Source of the DNA: a virus
Lineage: Duplodnaviria; Heunggongvirae; Uroviricota; Caudoviricetes
Virus record (IMG/VR): IMGVR_UViG_2537561945_000004
Length of the DNA stretch: 42,538 nt
Strand: one strand, 5' to 3'
The translations under genes were made by a program, and so were the position numbers. Numbering within the stretch: the first letter of the stretch is position 1; each line of letters begins with the position of its first letter. The notes under the pieces were generated by a model. That model was given only the letters and a program-made list of their open reading frames with translations, had not been told where the DNA came from and did not search any database. This document shows positions 5,814-6,542 of the stretch, in pieces.

Positions 5814-6542
5814 CTATCGTTTCGCTTTGTGCTCATCCCAGCACGTTTTGCACCATGCCATTAAGCCGTCCGCATTTTGATTATTAGGGTAAAAGCTGGT
5901 TCGTTTTCTGCGGACATTACAAATTGGGCACCACTTCATATGGCGTGTATTCTTTGGGCCATCGAGACACCTTGCACACCACTTAGTCAATCCATCTGGA
6001 TTTTTTGACGATTTCCTGAATTTTTCATATGGAAGGTTTATTCTGCATCGCAAGCACTGCTTGCTACCACTTGAAACTCTGTTAGCTGATTCTTCTTTTG
6101 GCGGCGATACAGAAGGTATTCTTGCTGGCTCTGATACTGCCTGAGGTGCTTTTTTAGATGACTGAGACGATATGTCATCACCAGGGAATCTTCCATGATA
6201 TGCCGGACGCGTTGACACTCCAGGTGGAAGCTCAGCTGTAAACGGCTTTGGCTGAATCAGTTGCCTCTCTTTTGCTAACTCCTGCTGTTTATAATATGTC
6301 TGGATTACCGCACTATCATAAGCAGGAGGTGCGGAAATATCAGGCGCATTACCTCCAGTTTTTTGAAACTGAGTAGAGGTGTGTTCTATCACCTGTGTAC
6401 GATTAATCGTTATCTCCCCATCTTCGGTCTTTATCGTTTTGTTATGATTAACGACCGTACGATCAGAGATCTTAGTCTTGTTCTGGTTGATAACGTAAAT
6501 AATCACCGCAACCACACCAACAACTATCCAGAAAACTTCCAT
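5814..6542 (-). CDS. Membrane-anchored protein with tandem C-terminal zinc-ribbon repeats (accessory/moron gene, function unknown)
   Basis: GAGGAAAA RBS; N-terminal TM helix (VFWIVVGVVAVIIYVI), Pro/Ser/Gln-rich linker, two repeats of CxxC-x(18-22)-DGL-x(3)-WCxxC; moderately AT-rich. Confidence 0.6.
   Translation of the reverse strand: MEVFWIVVGVVAVIIYVINQNKTKISDRTVVNHNKTIKTEDGEITINRTQVIEHTSTQFQKTGGNAPDISAPPAYDSAVIQTYYKQQELAKERQLIQPKPFTAELPPGVSTRPAYHGRFPGDDISSQSSKKAPQAVSEPARIPSVSPPKEESANRVSSGSKQCLRCRINLPYEKFRKSSKNPDGLTKWCARCLDGPKNTRHMKWCPICNVRRKRTSFYPNNQNADGLMAWCKTCWDEHKAKR

What the first reader, a model, noticed from the sequence alone, without database searches (positions are those of the whole stretch)
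5814..6542. Membrane-anchored protein with tandem zinc-ribbon repeats as an operator-controlled accessory gene
The 242-aa product has one N-terminal TM helix, a long Pro/Ser/Gln-rich probably disordered linker, and two consecutive repeats of CxxC-x(18-22)-(N/K)xDGL-x(3)-WCxxC (CLRC...NPDGLTKWCARC and CPIC...NADGLMAWCKTC). I cannot place it in a family I know. It lies in the accessory island between tail spike and virion genes, has its own RBS and an operator palindrome 21 nt upstream, and is convergent with the SOS-controlled antirepressor-like gene. Candidate roles are superinfection exclusion, injection blocking or membrane-tethered regulation.
Basis: seen in the sequence. Interest (0 to 1): 0.6.

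Follow-up and report, generated by a model that had tools for sequence, protein, structure and literature searches.

The report
Membrane-tethered zinc-finger phage early protein
A prophage gene, switched by the phage's own repressor, encodes an uncharacterised protein that is anchored in the inner membrane and carries two basic zinc fingers in the cytoplasm; relatives sit next to the immunity switch of many temperate phages, so it is a good but unproven candidate for a protein that handles DNA at the membrane.

Summary
Window 5814-6542 (-) is an intact 242-aa gene under purifying selection. It has an N-terminal TM helix, a conserved beta-hairpin, a variable Pro/Ser/Gln linker and two Cys4 repeats. 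The window is an epsilon15/TL-2011b-like E. coli prophage.

- The repeats fold as treble-clef fingers of the Stc1 tandem type, not classical zinc ribbons.
- The spacing is CxxC-x14-NxDGL-x2-WCxxC.
- The family exists already as PHROG 6762, function unknown.

In viruses this finger module is mostly arrayed in front of HNH/EndoVII nucleases. Here it lacks catalytic residues and is very basic (family mean +13.7).

The palindrome upstream of the gene is one of 16 TTACC-N5-GGTAA sites (0.76 expected). The same motif flanks the cI-like gene. The palindrome contains the -10 element (TACCTT) of a promoter whose layout is conserved across several genera. I therefore predict the gene is off in lysogens and on at infection or induction.

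Homologues in Gammaproteobacteria (plus one truncated single-finger relative in a Neisseria MAG) repeatedly abut cI or antirepressor genes.

Best reading (about 0.35): a repressor-controlled, membrane-tethered nucleic-acid binder that excludes or aborts incoming phage DNA, analogous to AbiP and PdpSau. Function is untested.

The parts
5814..6542 (-). CDS, 242 aa; bitopic membrane protein with tandem Zn fingers (WP_000451758.1; PHROG 6762)
   Evidence: ORF. RefSeq annotation. PHROG 6762 at E 2.8e-150. 24-sequence alignment. Intact in 54 of 54 related contigs with dN/dS 0.14-0.35.
6483..6536 (-). N-terminal TM helix (aa 3-20). Only Met-Glu precedes it, and NQNKTK...R follows, so the predicted topology is N-out/C-in.
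   Evidence: Hydropathy peak 2.33. AF2 helix 3-20 with pLDDT about 90. 'M-E/D + hydrophobic helix + N-x-N-K/R-T' is conserved. YeP5 has a (TK)9 run after the helix.
6378..6467 (-). Conserved juxtamembrane beta-hairpin (aa 26-55; T39, G42 invariant; motif T-x-K-T-x-D-G-E)
   Evidence: conservation. (two 14-residue strands, pLDDT about 70). No other protein type carries this module within the reach of the word-indexed search.
6066..6377 (-). Variable, probably disordered Pro/Ala/Ser/Gln-rich linker (aa 56-159), with one predicted helix at 77-94
   Evidence: Composition. Length varies by about 40 residues and there is little conservation. pLDDT is mostly below 50. dN/dS is 0.3-0.7.
5961..6065 (-). 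Zn finger 1 (aa 160-194): C163-x2-C166-x14-NPDGL-x2-W-C189-x2-C192
   Evidence: Invariant Cys/W/D/G. pLDDT above 90, with a knuckle plus CxxC at the helix N-terminus. Matches Stc1, endonuclease VII-associated and HNH-associated modules.
5820..5939 (-). Zn finger 2 (aa 202-241): C205-x2-C208-x14-NADGL-x2-W-C231-x2-C234. It is 12/35 identical to finger 1 when aligned in register (read directly from the sequence).
   Evidence: phrog_2633, phrog_5558 and phrog_47 Zn modules match 197-241.
6550..6553 (-). Shine-Dalgarno GAGG, 7 nt before the ATG
   Evidence: Sequence.
6562..6578 (.). Operator palindrome ATTACCTTTAAGGTAAT (8-bp arms, 1-bp centre), same motif as the sites flanking the cI-like gene
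   Evidence: 16 sites against 0.76 expected; sites at 36004, 36052, 36764 and 36826 flank the cI-like gene 36122-36706. (an equivalent palindrome at the same position in other genera).
6571..6599 (-). Predicted sigma-70 promoter: -35 TTGATC (6594-6599), 17-nt spacer, -10 TACCTT (6571-6576) inside the operator; predicted start near 6564
   Evidence: Not found by the consensus scan, whose threshold (at least 4 of 6 matches per hexamer) excludes a 3-of-6 -10 such as TACCTT. Inferred from a conserved layout, TTGAxx, 16-17 nt, then TACCTT / TAACCT / TACCAT inside the local operator. This layout is seen in Escherichia, Serratia, the L073-L078 group (62-63% identical, genera not determined), L080/81, Providencia, Pectobacterium and L097.
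5798..5815 (.). GC-rich hairpin terminator shared with the convergent gene 5534-5791
   Evidence: 7-bp stem, 6 GC pairs, overlapping the stop codon.
6656..6670 (.). Second operator, 93 bp away centre to centre, next to the -35 of the divergent isrK/C4/antirepressor promoter
   Evidence: Promoter-like sites at 6627-6656 and 6672-6700. isrK starts at 6707.

Best explanation
The gene is a single-gene accessory cassette (promoter/operator, RBS, CDS, terminator) of an epsilon15/TL-2011b-like prophage.

Regulation. Its weak sigma-70 promoter has its -10 element inside an operator of the phage's cI/cro-type switch. The protein is therefore predicted to be absent in the stable lysogen. It should be made as soon as repressor is missing, that is, right after infection or after SOS/antirepressor-driven induction.

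Product. The protein inserts in the inner membrane with a two-residue periplasmic N-terminus. A conserved beta-hairpin lies at the membrane face. A flexible linker of roughly 100 residues follows. The cytoplasmic head is rigid and very basic. It consists of two Stc1-type treble-clef Zn fingers. These are non-catalytic relatives of the Zn scaffolds and targeting modules of HNH/EndoVII nucleases.

Proposed mechanism. The head binds nucleic acid, most likely DNA, without cutting it, and holds it at the inner face of the membrane. The most likely use is to exclude or abort phage DNA that enters while repressor immunity is down. That would make it a functional analogue of the membrane-anchored nucleic-acid-binding abortive-infection proteins AbiP and PdpSau.

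Shown here: gene, architecture, fold class, selection, operator motif, conserved promoter layout, genomic associations. Inferred: topology, Zn binding, repression by CI, nucleic-acid binding. Speculative: the exclusion/abortive outcome.
For: Gene and architecture. define the gene and its parts. Purifying selection is concentrated on the fingers.

Finger module.
- Pfam Stc1 scores 21 bits for the window protein. Relatives score above the cutoff (P0041 26.6 bits; 50 of 78 long relatives).
- The best Foldseek PDB match is the Stc1 tandem Zn finger 2LUY.
- Other proteins carrying the module hit HNH (12), HNH_5 (12), Endonuclease_7 (10), HNH_4 (4), Bro-N, KilA-N, T5orf172 and NUMOD3 (the HNH-type counts are per family and may overlap). 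The same association appears in BFVD and PHROG. These are DNA-directed proteins.
- The module's net charge is +7 to +19, mean +13.7, in 83 family members.

Regulation.
- The operator motif occurs 16 times against 0.76 expected and flanks the cI-like gene.
- The -35, 17-nt spacer and -10-inside-operator layout is conserved across genera. The operator sequence changes with the phage, for example TTAACC-N5-GGTTAA in Providencia.
- The Oceanobacter homologue shares CTTAG-type repeats between its upstream region and the cI-cro region.

Context.
- Directly next to a cI-type HTH+S24 repressor in five contexts: Aeromonas phiARM81mr, Marinobacterium, Acinetobacter L101, Oceanobacter and Pseudoalteromonas. 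In L014 and Acinetobacter L015/L105 it lies downstream of cI with one small ORF between.
- Next to antirepressor or Arc genes in E. coli, Serratia, Pectobacterium, L072-78, L082, L097, Haemophilus, Edwardsiella, Acinetobacter L098 and the P0046 group.
- Accessory and patchy: only 6 of 50,697 phage records carry it.

Precedent. [quoted passage not shown] PdpSau has an N-terminal TM helix plus a positively charged cytoplasmic domain with a predicted nucleic-acid-binding (OB-like) fold, and it aborts infection (PMC10127798).
Against: - No experiment and no homology links this family to any defence system. PADLOC gives 0 hits. The Sie-like PHROG match has E 0.73 and covers only the TM region.
- Predicted repression by CI means the protein would not protect an established lysogen. 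That is unlike most prophage exclusion genes.
- In about three distant homologues the gene instead follows cI within 18-30 nt and is probably co-transcribed with it. Regulation is therefore not uniform across the family.
- The only characterised Stc1 tandem finger, in fission yeast, binds a protein (Ago1; from my own knowledge, not tested here). Nucleic-acid binding rests on domain associations and charge alone.
- The -10 hexamer matches consensus at only 3 of 6 positions. The promoter was not detected by the consensus scan.
- Topology and Zn binding are predictions.
Confidence: 0.35

Rival explanations
1. Host takeover or modulation by protein sequestration. The tandem finger is a protein-binding head, as in yeast Stc1. 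The anchor pulls a host or phage protein to the membrane early in the lytic programme. Candidate targets would be a division, replication, protease or transcription factor. The layout of N-out anchor, basic juxtamembrane segment, P/Q-rich linker and cytoplasmic globular head is the same as that of ZipA (from my own knowledge).
For: - The closest solved structure is the Stc1 tandem finger.
- One relative replaces the TM anchor with a J-domain carrying HPD (P0156). Another is a free 85-aa module (P0127). This suggests a target-binding head attached to different 'effector' N-termini.
- The promoter is repressor-controlled, as for lambda kil or cIII-type early genes.
- The conserved beta-hairpin suggests more than a passive tether.
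Against: - No partner is identified.
- The extreme positive charge and the association of the module with nucleases and DNA-binding domains fit nucleic acid better.
- Homologues probably co-transcribed with cI would be expressed constantly. That is hard to reconcile with a toxic takeover function.
Confidence: 0.2
2. Tether for the phage's own genome. An early membrane protein binds the incoming or replicating phage DNA and organises it at the membrane, as phi29 p16.7 does.
For: - The logic matches p16.7: an integral membrane protein with an N-terminal anchor and a C-terminal DNA-binding part that recruits phage DNA to the membrane (PMC4974454).
- Early expression is predicted.
- The head is basic.
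Against: - The gene never sits in a replication module. It sits in accessory or immunity regions.
- It is absent from most relatives of this phage type (6 of 50,697 phage records), so it is not a core replication function.
- There is no sequence or fold similarity to p16.7.
Confidence: 0.12
3. Lysis-lysogeny regulator tied to the immunity switch. A membrane-tethered factor binds a switch component (repressor, antirepressor, or a protease such as FtsH) and biases establishment or induction.
For: - It is strikingly and repeatedly adjacent to cI, Arc and antirepressor genes in unrelated phage backbones.
- Expression is either repressed by CI or coupled to cI. Both are active during the decision period.
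- In the window it is divergent from the C4-RNA/antirepressor operon and shares the operator pair.
Against: - The neighbouring antirepressors belong to different families (Bro-N, KilA-N/ANT, ORF6N, P22_AR, pRha). The repressors differ as well (S24-containing or not). Yet the finger module is highly conserved, so a shared switch partner is unlikely.
- Immunity regions are general hot spots for accessory genes, so adjacency may be positional only.
Confidence: 0.1
4. Classical lysogenic-conversion exclusion. The protein is made constitutively in the lysogen and blocks DNA injection of superinfecting phages, like P22 SieA.
For: - It is an inner-membrane protein encoded between the ejection-protein genes and the antirepressor/tailspike region. 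From my own knowledge, this is the slot that sieA occupies in P22.
- Homologues lie directly downstream of cI in the rex position.
Against: - In this phage and in at least six other lineages the -10 element lies inside a consensus operator, so expression in the lysogen should be low.
- There is no similarity to any known Sie protein.
Confidence: 0.08
5. An active membrane-bound HNH/EndoVII-type nuclease.
For: Structural similarity to the Zn sites of Hpy99I and PacI. PHROG matches to 'endonuclease VII' and 'HNH endonuclease' families.
Against: - The matches cover only the non-catalytic N-terminal Zn modules of those families (profile positions 45-95 of 271 and 8-52 of 142).
- No Pfam HNH or Endonuclease_7 hit.
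- Neither repeat has a conserved His or Asn at the positions that T4 EndoVII-type motifs (DHxH...CxxCN, from my own knowledge) would use. SSK and L occupy them in repeat 1, TSFY and W in repeat 2.
Confidence: 0.02

Closest known systems
PHROG 6762 (phage protein family, unknown function)
   Same: Full-length match, residues 1-242 to profile 1-242, E 2.8e-150. Same architecture.
   Different: Nothing is known about the family, so membership gives no function.
Stc1 domain (Pfam PF12898; solved structure 2LUY, tandem zinc finger of fission-yeast Stc1)
   Same: Two consecutive Cys4 fingers. Best PDB fold match (E 4.4e-3, prob 0.87). Many relatives score above the Pfam cutoff.
   Different: The window protein scores 21.0 bits against a cutoff of 24.8. 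Yeast Stc1 is a soluble nuclear adaptor that binds Ago1 (from my own knowledge). Here the module is membrane-tethered, very basic and phage-encoded.
N-terminal Zn modules of phage and giant-virus HNH / endonuclease VII proteins, and the Cys4 sites of beta-beta-alpha-Me restriction enzymes Hpy99I and PacI
   Different: No catalytic beta-beta-alpha-Me motif and no nuclease domain. The window protein has a membrane anchor instead.
AbiP (Lactococcus) and PdpSau (S. aureus prophages): membrane-anchored nucleic-acid-binding abortive-infection proteins
   Same: A single N-terminal TM helix plus a positively charged cytoplasmic domain. In AbiP that domain binds nucleic acid; in PdpSau binding is predicted. 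PdpSau is a prophage accessory gene.
   Different: No sequence or fold homology: their domain is OB-like, here it is Zn fingers. They are expressed in uninfected cells. Here a repressor operator overlaps the promoter. No phenotype is known for this family.
phi29 p16.7
   Same: An early phage membrane protein with an N-terminal anchor and a C-terminal DNA-binding part that brings DNA to the membrane.
   Different: Unrelated sequence. p16.7 serves protein-primed replication in a lytic phage. This gene is an accessory cassette in immunity regions of temperate phages.
P22 SieA, T4 Imm and HK97 gp15 (superinfection-exclusion membrane proteins)
   Same: Inner-membrane location. Similar genome slot to sieA (from my own knowledge). 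T4 Imm is likewise an early gene (from my own knowledge).
   Different: No detectable homology. None of them has cytoplasmic zinc fingers.

Membership tests
PHROG 6762 | Full-length match to the family profile | tested here: met
   E 2.8e-150, 499.9 bits, residues 1-242 to profile 1-242 of 242.
Pfam Stc1 domain (PF12898) | Score at or above the gathering cutoff of 24.8 bits | tested here: not met
   Window protein scores 21.0 bits, E 5.1e-4, and matches only profile positions 52-83. Relatives pass: P0041 at 26.6 bits and 50 of 78 long relatives. The window protein is therefore a borderline, divergent member.
Pfam Stc1 domain (PF12898) | Tandem fingers with eight conserved Cys and a fold like 2LUY | tested here: met
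   Eight Cys conserved. 2LUY is the top Foldseek PDB hit, prob 0.87. AF2 pLDDT exceeds 90 for residues 160-242.
   In the AF2 model the second CxxC of each repeat spans the end of a strand and the first turn of a helix (E185-189/H190-194 and E227-231/H232-241). That is the treble-clef arrangement. This rests on a prediction only.
HNH / endonuclease VII (beta-beta-alpha-Me) nucleases | Catalytic His general base and Asn/His/Asp metal ligands within the beta-beta-alpha motif; Pfam HNH or Endonuclease_7 match | tested here: not met
   No such Pfam hit. No conserved His or Asn at the equivalent positions. PHROG matches cover only the accessory Zn modules.
Known anti-phage defence or exclusion proteins (PADLOC-DB; Sie-like PHROGs) | Profile match to a described defence or exclusion protein | tested here: not met
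   PADLOC gives 0 families. phrog_8545 'Sie-like' has E 0.73 and covers the TM region only.
AbiP/PdpSau-like membrane-anchored nucleic-acid-binding Abi proteins (functional class) | N-terminal TM anchor | tested here: met
   (prediction).
AbiP/PdpSau-like membrane-anchored nucleic-acid-binding Abi proteins (functional class) | Cytoplasmic domain that binds nucleic acid | tested here: inconclusive
   Net charge is +14 here and +7 to +19 across the family. The module is associated with DNA-directed enzymes. The fold differs from the OB-like domain of PdpSau.
AbiP/PdpSau-like membrane-anchored nucleic-acid-binding Abi proteins (functional class) | Confers phage resistance or abortive infection when expressed | not testable with these tools
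   Needs plating and infection assays.
Repressor-controlled early gene of the prophage | Operator of the cI/cro switch overlapping the promoter | tested here: met
   The motif is shared with the sites flanking the cI-like gene. The -10 lies inside the operator, and the layout is conserved in at least 7 lineages. Actual binding and repression were not tested.
Zinc-binding anti-sigma (ZAS) factors | N-terminal HxxxCxxC motif followed by a TM segment | tested here: not met
   The domain order is the opposite and no HxxxCxxC is present. No Pfam hit.

The most novel reading that the evidence does not exclude
This could be a previously unrecognised class of immunity-switch-coupled phage proteins. 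A membrane-tethered, non-catalytic tandem zinc finger would be produced exactly when repressor immunity lapses, at induction or early in infection. It would capture nucleic acid entering at the inner membrane. Exclusion would thereby take over from the repressor. If so, this would be a new exclusion mechanism with a cytoplasmic DNA-binding head, found in temperate phages of several orders of Gammaproteobacteria.
Probability: 0.2. Interest if true: 0.7.

Novelty: new variant of a known kind. Interest (0 to 1): 0.5.

Why it matters
The family has no function, no passing Pfam domain and only 'hypothetical protein' annotation. Even so, it is common:
- One 90%-identity cluster holds 424 sequences.
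- At least 45 of the 150 best representative hits, from a library clustered at 50% identity, share the architecture.
- Homologues occur in Escherichia, Serratia, Providencia, Pectobacterium, Yersinia, Edwardsiella, Aeromonas, Pasteurellaceae, Acinetobacter and marine Gammaproteobacteria.

The gene repeatedly sits beside the lysis-lysogeny switch. Showing what it does would do three things. It would assign a role to a widespread immunity-region gene. It would test whether Stc1-type fingers, until now a eukaryotic protein adaptor and an unexplained appendage of viral HNH nucleases, bind DNA. And it could reveal an exclusion or takeover mechanism that acts on nucleic acid at the membrane. The predictions are cheap to test.

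Tried and rejected
- Sequence search of the finger domain against PDB chains, as a single sequence and as a profile. Only marginal hits appeared: PacI E 0.084 and RING fingers E 0.7 or above.
- PADLOC and NCBIfam gave nothing meaningful.
- A search with the N-terminal anchor plus hairpin profile, looking for domain swaps, returned only truncated copies of the same family.
- The AFDB fold library was unavailable.
- Literature searches for the accession, for TL-2011b and for Stc1 in phages found nothing on this protein.
- The genome-contig scan returned only 10 loci, because a single narrow peptide pattern was used.
- An active nuclease was rejected because the catalytic residues are absent.
- A ZAS-type anti-sigma factor was rejected because the domain order is wrong and the motif is missing.
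- A periplasmic location for the fingers was rejected. Positive residues follow the helix, and eight Cys thiols would need a reducing compartment.
- A CRP site reading of the TGTGACATGTCACA palindrome in L072-78 was rejected, because the spacer is 4 rather than 6.
- The simple promoter scan found no promoter for the gene. The promoter call rests on comparative conservation only.
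Full report
**Setting.** The window is a prophage of the epsilon15/TL-2011b type, inserted between guaA and yfgI in E. coli. The region 5400-7300 is 100% identical to four complete E. coli chromosomes, and matches are found in 537 records (534 genomes). RefSeq annotation of strain BE311 gives this gene order:
- lysis genes;
- an SGNH/GDSL tailspike;
- an 85-aa hypothetical protein;
- the target (WP_000451758.1, 'hypothetical protein');
- a frameshifted Bro-N gene;
- DUF4760;
- three large internal or ejection proteins and the rest of the virion module.

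In phage TL-2011b the same 242-aa ORF is intact, but it is annotated only as a misc_feature.

**The observation.** The ORF 5814-6542 (-) encodes 242 aa. Its parts are as follows.
- TM helix. The only strongly hydrophobic segment is at residues 1-19. AF2 models it as a helix at 3-20 with high confidence.
- Juxtamembrane segment. Residues 26-55 are conserved and form a predicted two-stranded hairpin.
- Linker. Residues about 56-159 are variable in length and sequence, rich in P, A, S and Q, and of low pLDDT.
- Fingers. Residues 160-242 have pLDDT above 90. The two repeats have identical spacing, CxxC-x14-N-x-DGL-x2-WCxxC, and are 12/35 identical to each other when aligned in register.

In 24 homologues from Enterobacterales, the four Cys of finger 1 and both Trp-Cys junctions are invariant or nearly so. 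The four Cys of finger 2 are missing only in one truncated entry.

All 54 E. coli-type viral contigs carry an intact 242-codon allele, in 38 distinct nucleotide alleles. dN/dS is about 0-0.09 in the finger region, 0.3-0.7 in the linker and 0.14-0.35 overall. This is a real, selected gene.

**What the fingers are.** Pfam gives only a sub-threshold Stc1 match, 21.0 bits against a cutoff of 24.8. PHROGs places the whole protein in phrog_6762, function unknown, at E 2.8e-150. PHROGs also matches each finger to the N-terminal Zn modules of families annotated as endonuclease VII, HNH endonuclease, Lar-like and primase.

In the AF2 model, the first CxxC of each repeat is a knuckle between two short strands. 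The second CxxC spans the end of a strand and the start of a helix. That is a treble clef, not a classical ribbon.

Fold searches agree:
- Foldseek ranks the solved Stc1 tandem zinc finger 2LUY first.
- The viral structure library returns mostly HNH endonucleases and giant-virus 'Zn-finger proteins'.

A profile of the finger pair finds 3292 proteins at E up to 1e-3 in the representative library, many with 4-10 tandem copies. Among 78 longer hits, 50 match Stc1, 12 HNH, 12 HNH_5, 10 Endonuclease_7 and 4 HNH_4. Others carry Bro-N, KilA-N, T5orf172 or NUMOD3.

The window protein has none of the catalytic His or Asn residues of those nucleases. Its finger pair carries 20 K+R against 6 D+E. Across 83 family members the net charge is +7 to +19, mean +13.7. 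I infer a non-catalytic nucleic-acid-binding head. This is an inference, because the one studied Stc1 finger binds a protein.

**Topology.** Every family member starts with M-E/D followed directly by the helix, and then by N-x-N-K/R-T and further basic residues. Yersinia phage YeP5 even has a (TK)9 run there. By the positive-inside rule the N-terminus faces the periplasm and the rest is cytoplasmic. Eight zinc-binding thiols also require a cytoplasmic location. This is predicted, not shown.

**Regulation.** The palindrome ATTACCTTTAAGGTAAT lies at 6562-6578, 19 nt upstream of the ATG. TTACC-N5-GGTAA occurs 16 times in the window at up to one mismatch. The expected count is 0.76, and no shuffle reached 16.
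- Four sites flank the cI-like gene at 36122-36706. That gene has an HTH_3 domain but no S24 peptidase domain, and its arrangement is lambda-like with OR and OL positions.
- Other sites lie at 5443, 6656, 26585, 27201, 30103/30121 and 33659/33721.

The consensus scan found no promoter for the target. Comparison did.
- In Escherichia, Serratia, the L073-L078 group, L080/81, Pectobacterium and L097, a -35 hexamer TTGAxx is followed after 16-17 nt by TACCTT or TACCAT, and that hexamer is the left half of the local operator.
- In Providencia both the operator (TTAACC-N5-GGTTAA) and the -10 (TAACCT) have changed together.
- The upstream neighbour differs between these loci: an antirepressor operon, a terminator or HicAB. 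The promoter-operator unit therefore belongs to this gene.
- Not every lineage fits. No such layout was found upstream of the homologue in L084 or L086-L090, and L091-L096 lack a palindromic operator.

A GC-rich hairpin overlapping the stop codon ends the unit. I conclude, by inference, that the gene is monocistronic, repressed by CI (and probably Cro), and expressed when repressor is absent.

**Surroundings in the window.** On the other side of the 380-nt intergenic region, Rfam detects three elements on the + strand: isrK (67.7 bits), the C4 antisense RNA (63.6 bits) and its a1/b1 target (44.1 bits, just below its gathering score of 46.7). They lie directly ahead of the Bro-N antirepressor gene. 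This is a P1/P7-type immI arrangement. A second operator, at 6656-6670, abuts its promoter.

The target is therefore divergent from the antirepressor operon. It is convergent with the 85-aa gene at 5534-5791. That gene has an exact LexA box and resembles the C-terminal domain of the Bro-N antirepressor (42% identity, E 9e-16).

**Family and contexts.** At least 45 of the 150 best representative hits share the anchor-hairpin-linker-two-finger plan. Variants have a coiled-coil linker, a single finger, a J-domain in place of the anchor (P0156), or no N-terminal part at all (P0127, 85 aa). Organisms include the following:
- Escherichia, Superficieibacter, Enterobacter, Citrobacter, Salmonella, Serratia, Providencia, Pectobacterium, Buttiauxella, Edwardsiella;
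- Yersinia phages and an Aeromonas phage;
- Pasteurella, Haemophilus, Aggregatibacter, Acinetobacter;
- Marinobacterium, Oceanobacter, Pseudoalteromonas;
- a truncated single-finger relative in a Neisseria MAG.

Only 6 of 50,697 phage records carry the gene, so it is accessory.

The neighbourhoods are informative.
- It directly abuts a cI-type HTH+S24 repressor gene in five contexts. In Aeromonas phiARM81mr and Marinobacterium it is co-directional with an 18-nt gap. In Acinetobacter L101 a terminator lies between. In Oceanobacter and Pseudoalteromonas it is tail-to-tail with cI. In L014 and in Acinetobacter L015/L105 it lies downstream of cI with one small ORF between.
- It lies beside antirepressor-type or Arc genes in E. 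coli, Serratia (KilA-N/ANT), Pectobacterium (Bro-N plus HicAB), L072-78 (Bro-N), L082 and L097 (ORF6N), Haemophilus (Bro-N/P22_AR_C), Edwardsiella (pRha), Acinetobacter L098 (Arc) and the P0046 group (HTH plus P22_AR).
- In Oceanobacter the upstream region of the gene shares CTTAG-type repeats with the cI-cro region. This again suggests operator control.
- About three homologues are probably co-transcribed with cI, so regulation is not uniform.

**Mechanism.** The secure part is a repressor-linked accessory cassette encoding a bitopic inner-membrane protein with a basic, Zn-dependent, non-catalytic tandem finger on a long flexible tether.

The most likely activity is binding nucleic acid at the inner face of the membrane. 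For the biological outcome I favour exclusion or abortion of incoming phage DNA during the repressor-free window. The reasons are:
- the gene is patchy and cassette-like;
- it sits in positions where prophages keep exclusion and defence genes;
- the same two-part logic is experimentally established for AbiP, where both anchor and nucleic-acid-binding domain are required (PMC13064643), and for the prophage protein PdpSau (PMC10127798).

I put this at about 0.35. The rivals are:
- sequestration of a protein at the membrane, as host takeover or a ZipA-like layout (0.2);
- tethering of the phage's own DNA as in phi29 p16.7 (0.12; PMC4974454);
- a switch regulator (0.1);
- classical lysogen-expressed exclusion (0.08, disfavoured by the operator);
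- an active nuclease (0.02, catalytic residues absent).

**Comparison and novelty.** The protein is a member of PHROG 6762 and a divergent carrier of the Stc1-type tandem finger. It is not an HNH nuclease, not a classical zinc ribbon, and not a member of any described defence or Sie family. The combination has not been described in anything I could find. That combination is a membrane anchor, a conserved hairpin, a tether and an Stc1-type finger pair, under direct control of the immunity operator and recurrently next to cI or antirepressor genes. I rate it a new variant of a known kind, of moderate interest (0.5). It is a well-defined, cheap-to-test candidate rather than a demonstrated new mechanism.

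Noticed in passing
window 6694-6891 (+), with 6925-7651: Rfam finds isrK (6707-6783, 67.7 bits), C4 antisense RNA (6808-6891, 63.6 bits) and its a1/b1 target (6694-6746, 44.1 bits, just under its gathering score of 46.7) directly ahead of a Bro-N antirepressor gene. This is a P1/P7-type immI module in an epsilon15-like prophage. The Bro-N gene is frameshifted here (6925-7251 and 7337-7651) but is an intact 231-aa ORF in TL-2011b.
   Followed up: partly
window 5443, 6563, 6656, 26585, 27201, 30103/30121, 33659, 33721, 35667, 36004, 36052, 36764, 36826: Dispersed operator family TTACC-N5-GGTAA: 16 sites against 0.76 expected. The sites flank the cI-like gene. They also precede accessory genes, the tRNA region and the small-terminase gene. 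The repressor may therefore control many separate promoters, as in P1.
   Followed up: partly
window 5495-5791 (+): An exact LexA box (TACTGTATAAATATACAGT) lies ahead of an 85-aa gene. Its product is 42% identical to the C-terminal domain of the Bro-N antirepressor. The cI-like repressor (36122-36706) has HTH_3 but no S24 peptidase domain. Together these suggest SOS induction through a LexA-controlled small antirepressor rather than repressor self-cleavage.
   Followed up: partly
window ~8243-9556: An IS3-family element with IS2-like orfA/orfB, an rve transposase and 32-nt imperfect inverted repeats interrupts the DUF4760 gene that starts at 7861. The gene is intact (540 nt) in strain BE311.
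   Followed up: partly
window 3176-5338 (-): The tailspike carries a GDSL/SGNH esterase domain (Pfam Lipase_GDSL_2). From my own knowledge its N-terminus is epsilon15-like. It may de-acetylate a surface polysaccharide.
   Followed up: no
window 26921-26997 (+): A phage-borne tRNA-Arg (anticodon tct) lies between the portal region and a 296-aa ORF. Operator sites are at 26585 and 27201.
   Followed up: no
proteins P0156, P0127, P0046, P0098, P0149 (representative and homologue searches): The same finger pair occurs with other N-termini: a J-domain with HPD (P0156), nothing at all (P0127, 85 aa), and TM plus coiled coil (P0098, P0149; P0046 has a single finger).
   Followed up: partly
L072-L078, about 74 nt upstream of the homologue: A conserved palindrome TGTGACATGTCACA lies between the upstream terminator and the -35 element. 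Its spacer of 4 does not fit a CRP site. It is unexplained.
   Followed up: no
L100 6657-7310 (Marinobacterium): A staphylococcal-nuclease homologue with an Excalibur domain, apparently secreted, lies directly downstream of the cI-homologue pair and overlaps the end of the homologue's ORF in a different frame. It may be another accessory or defence gene in the rex slot.
   Followed up: no
L001 5587-6675 (TL-2011b record NC_019445.1 34153-35241): The GenBank/RefSeq phage record marks this region only as misc_feature 'similar to hypothetical protein', although an intact 242-aa ORF is present (L001 5947-6675).
   Followed up: yes
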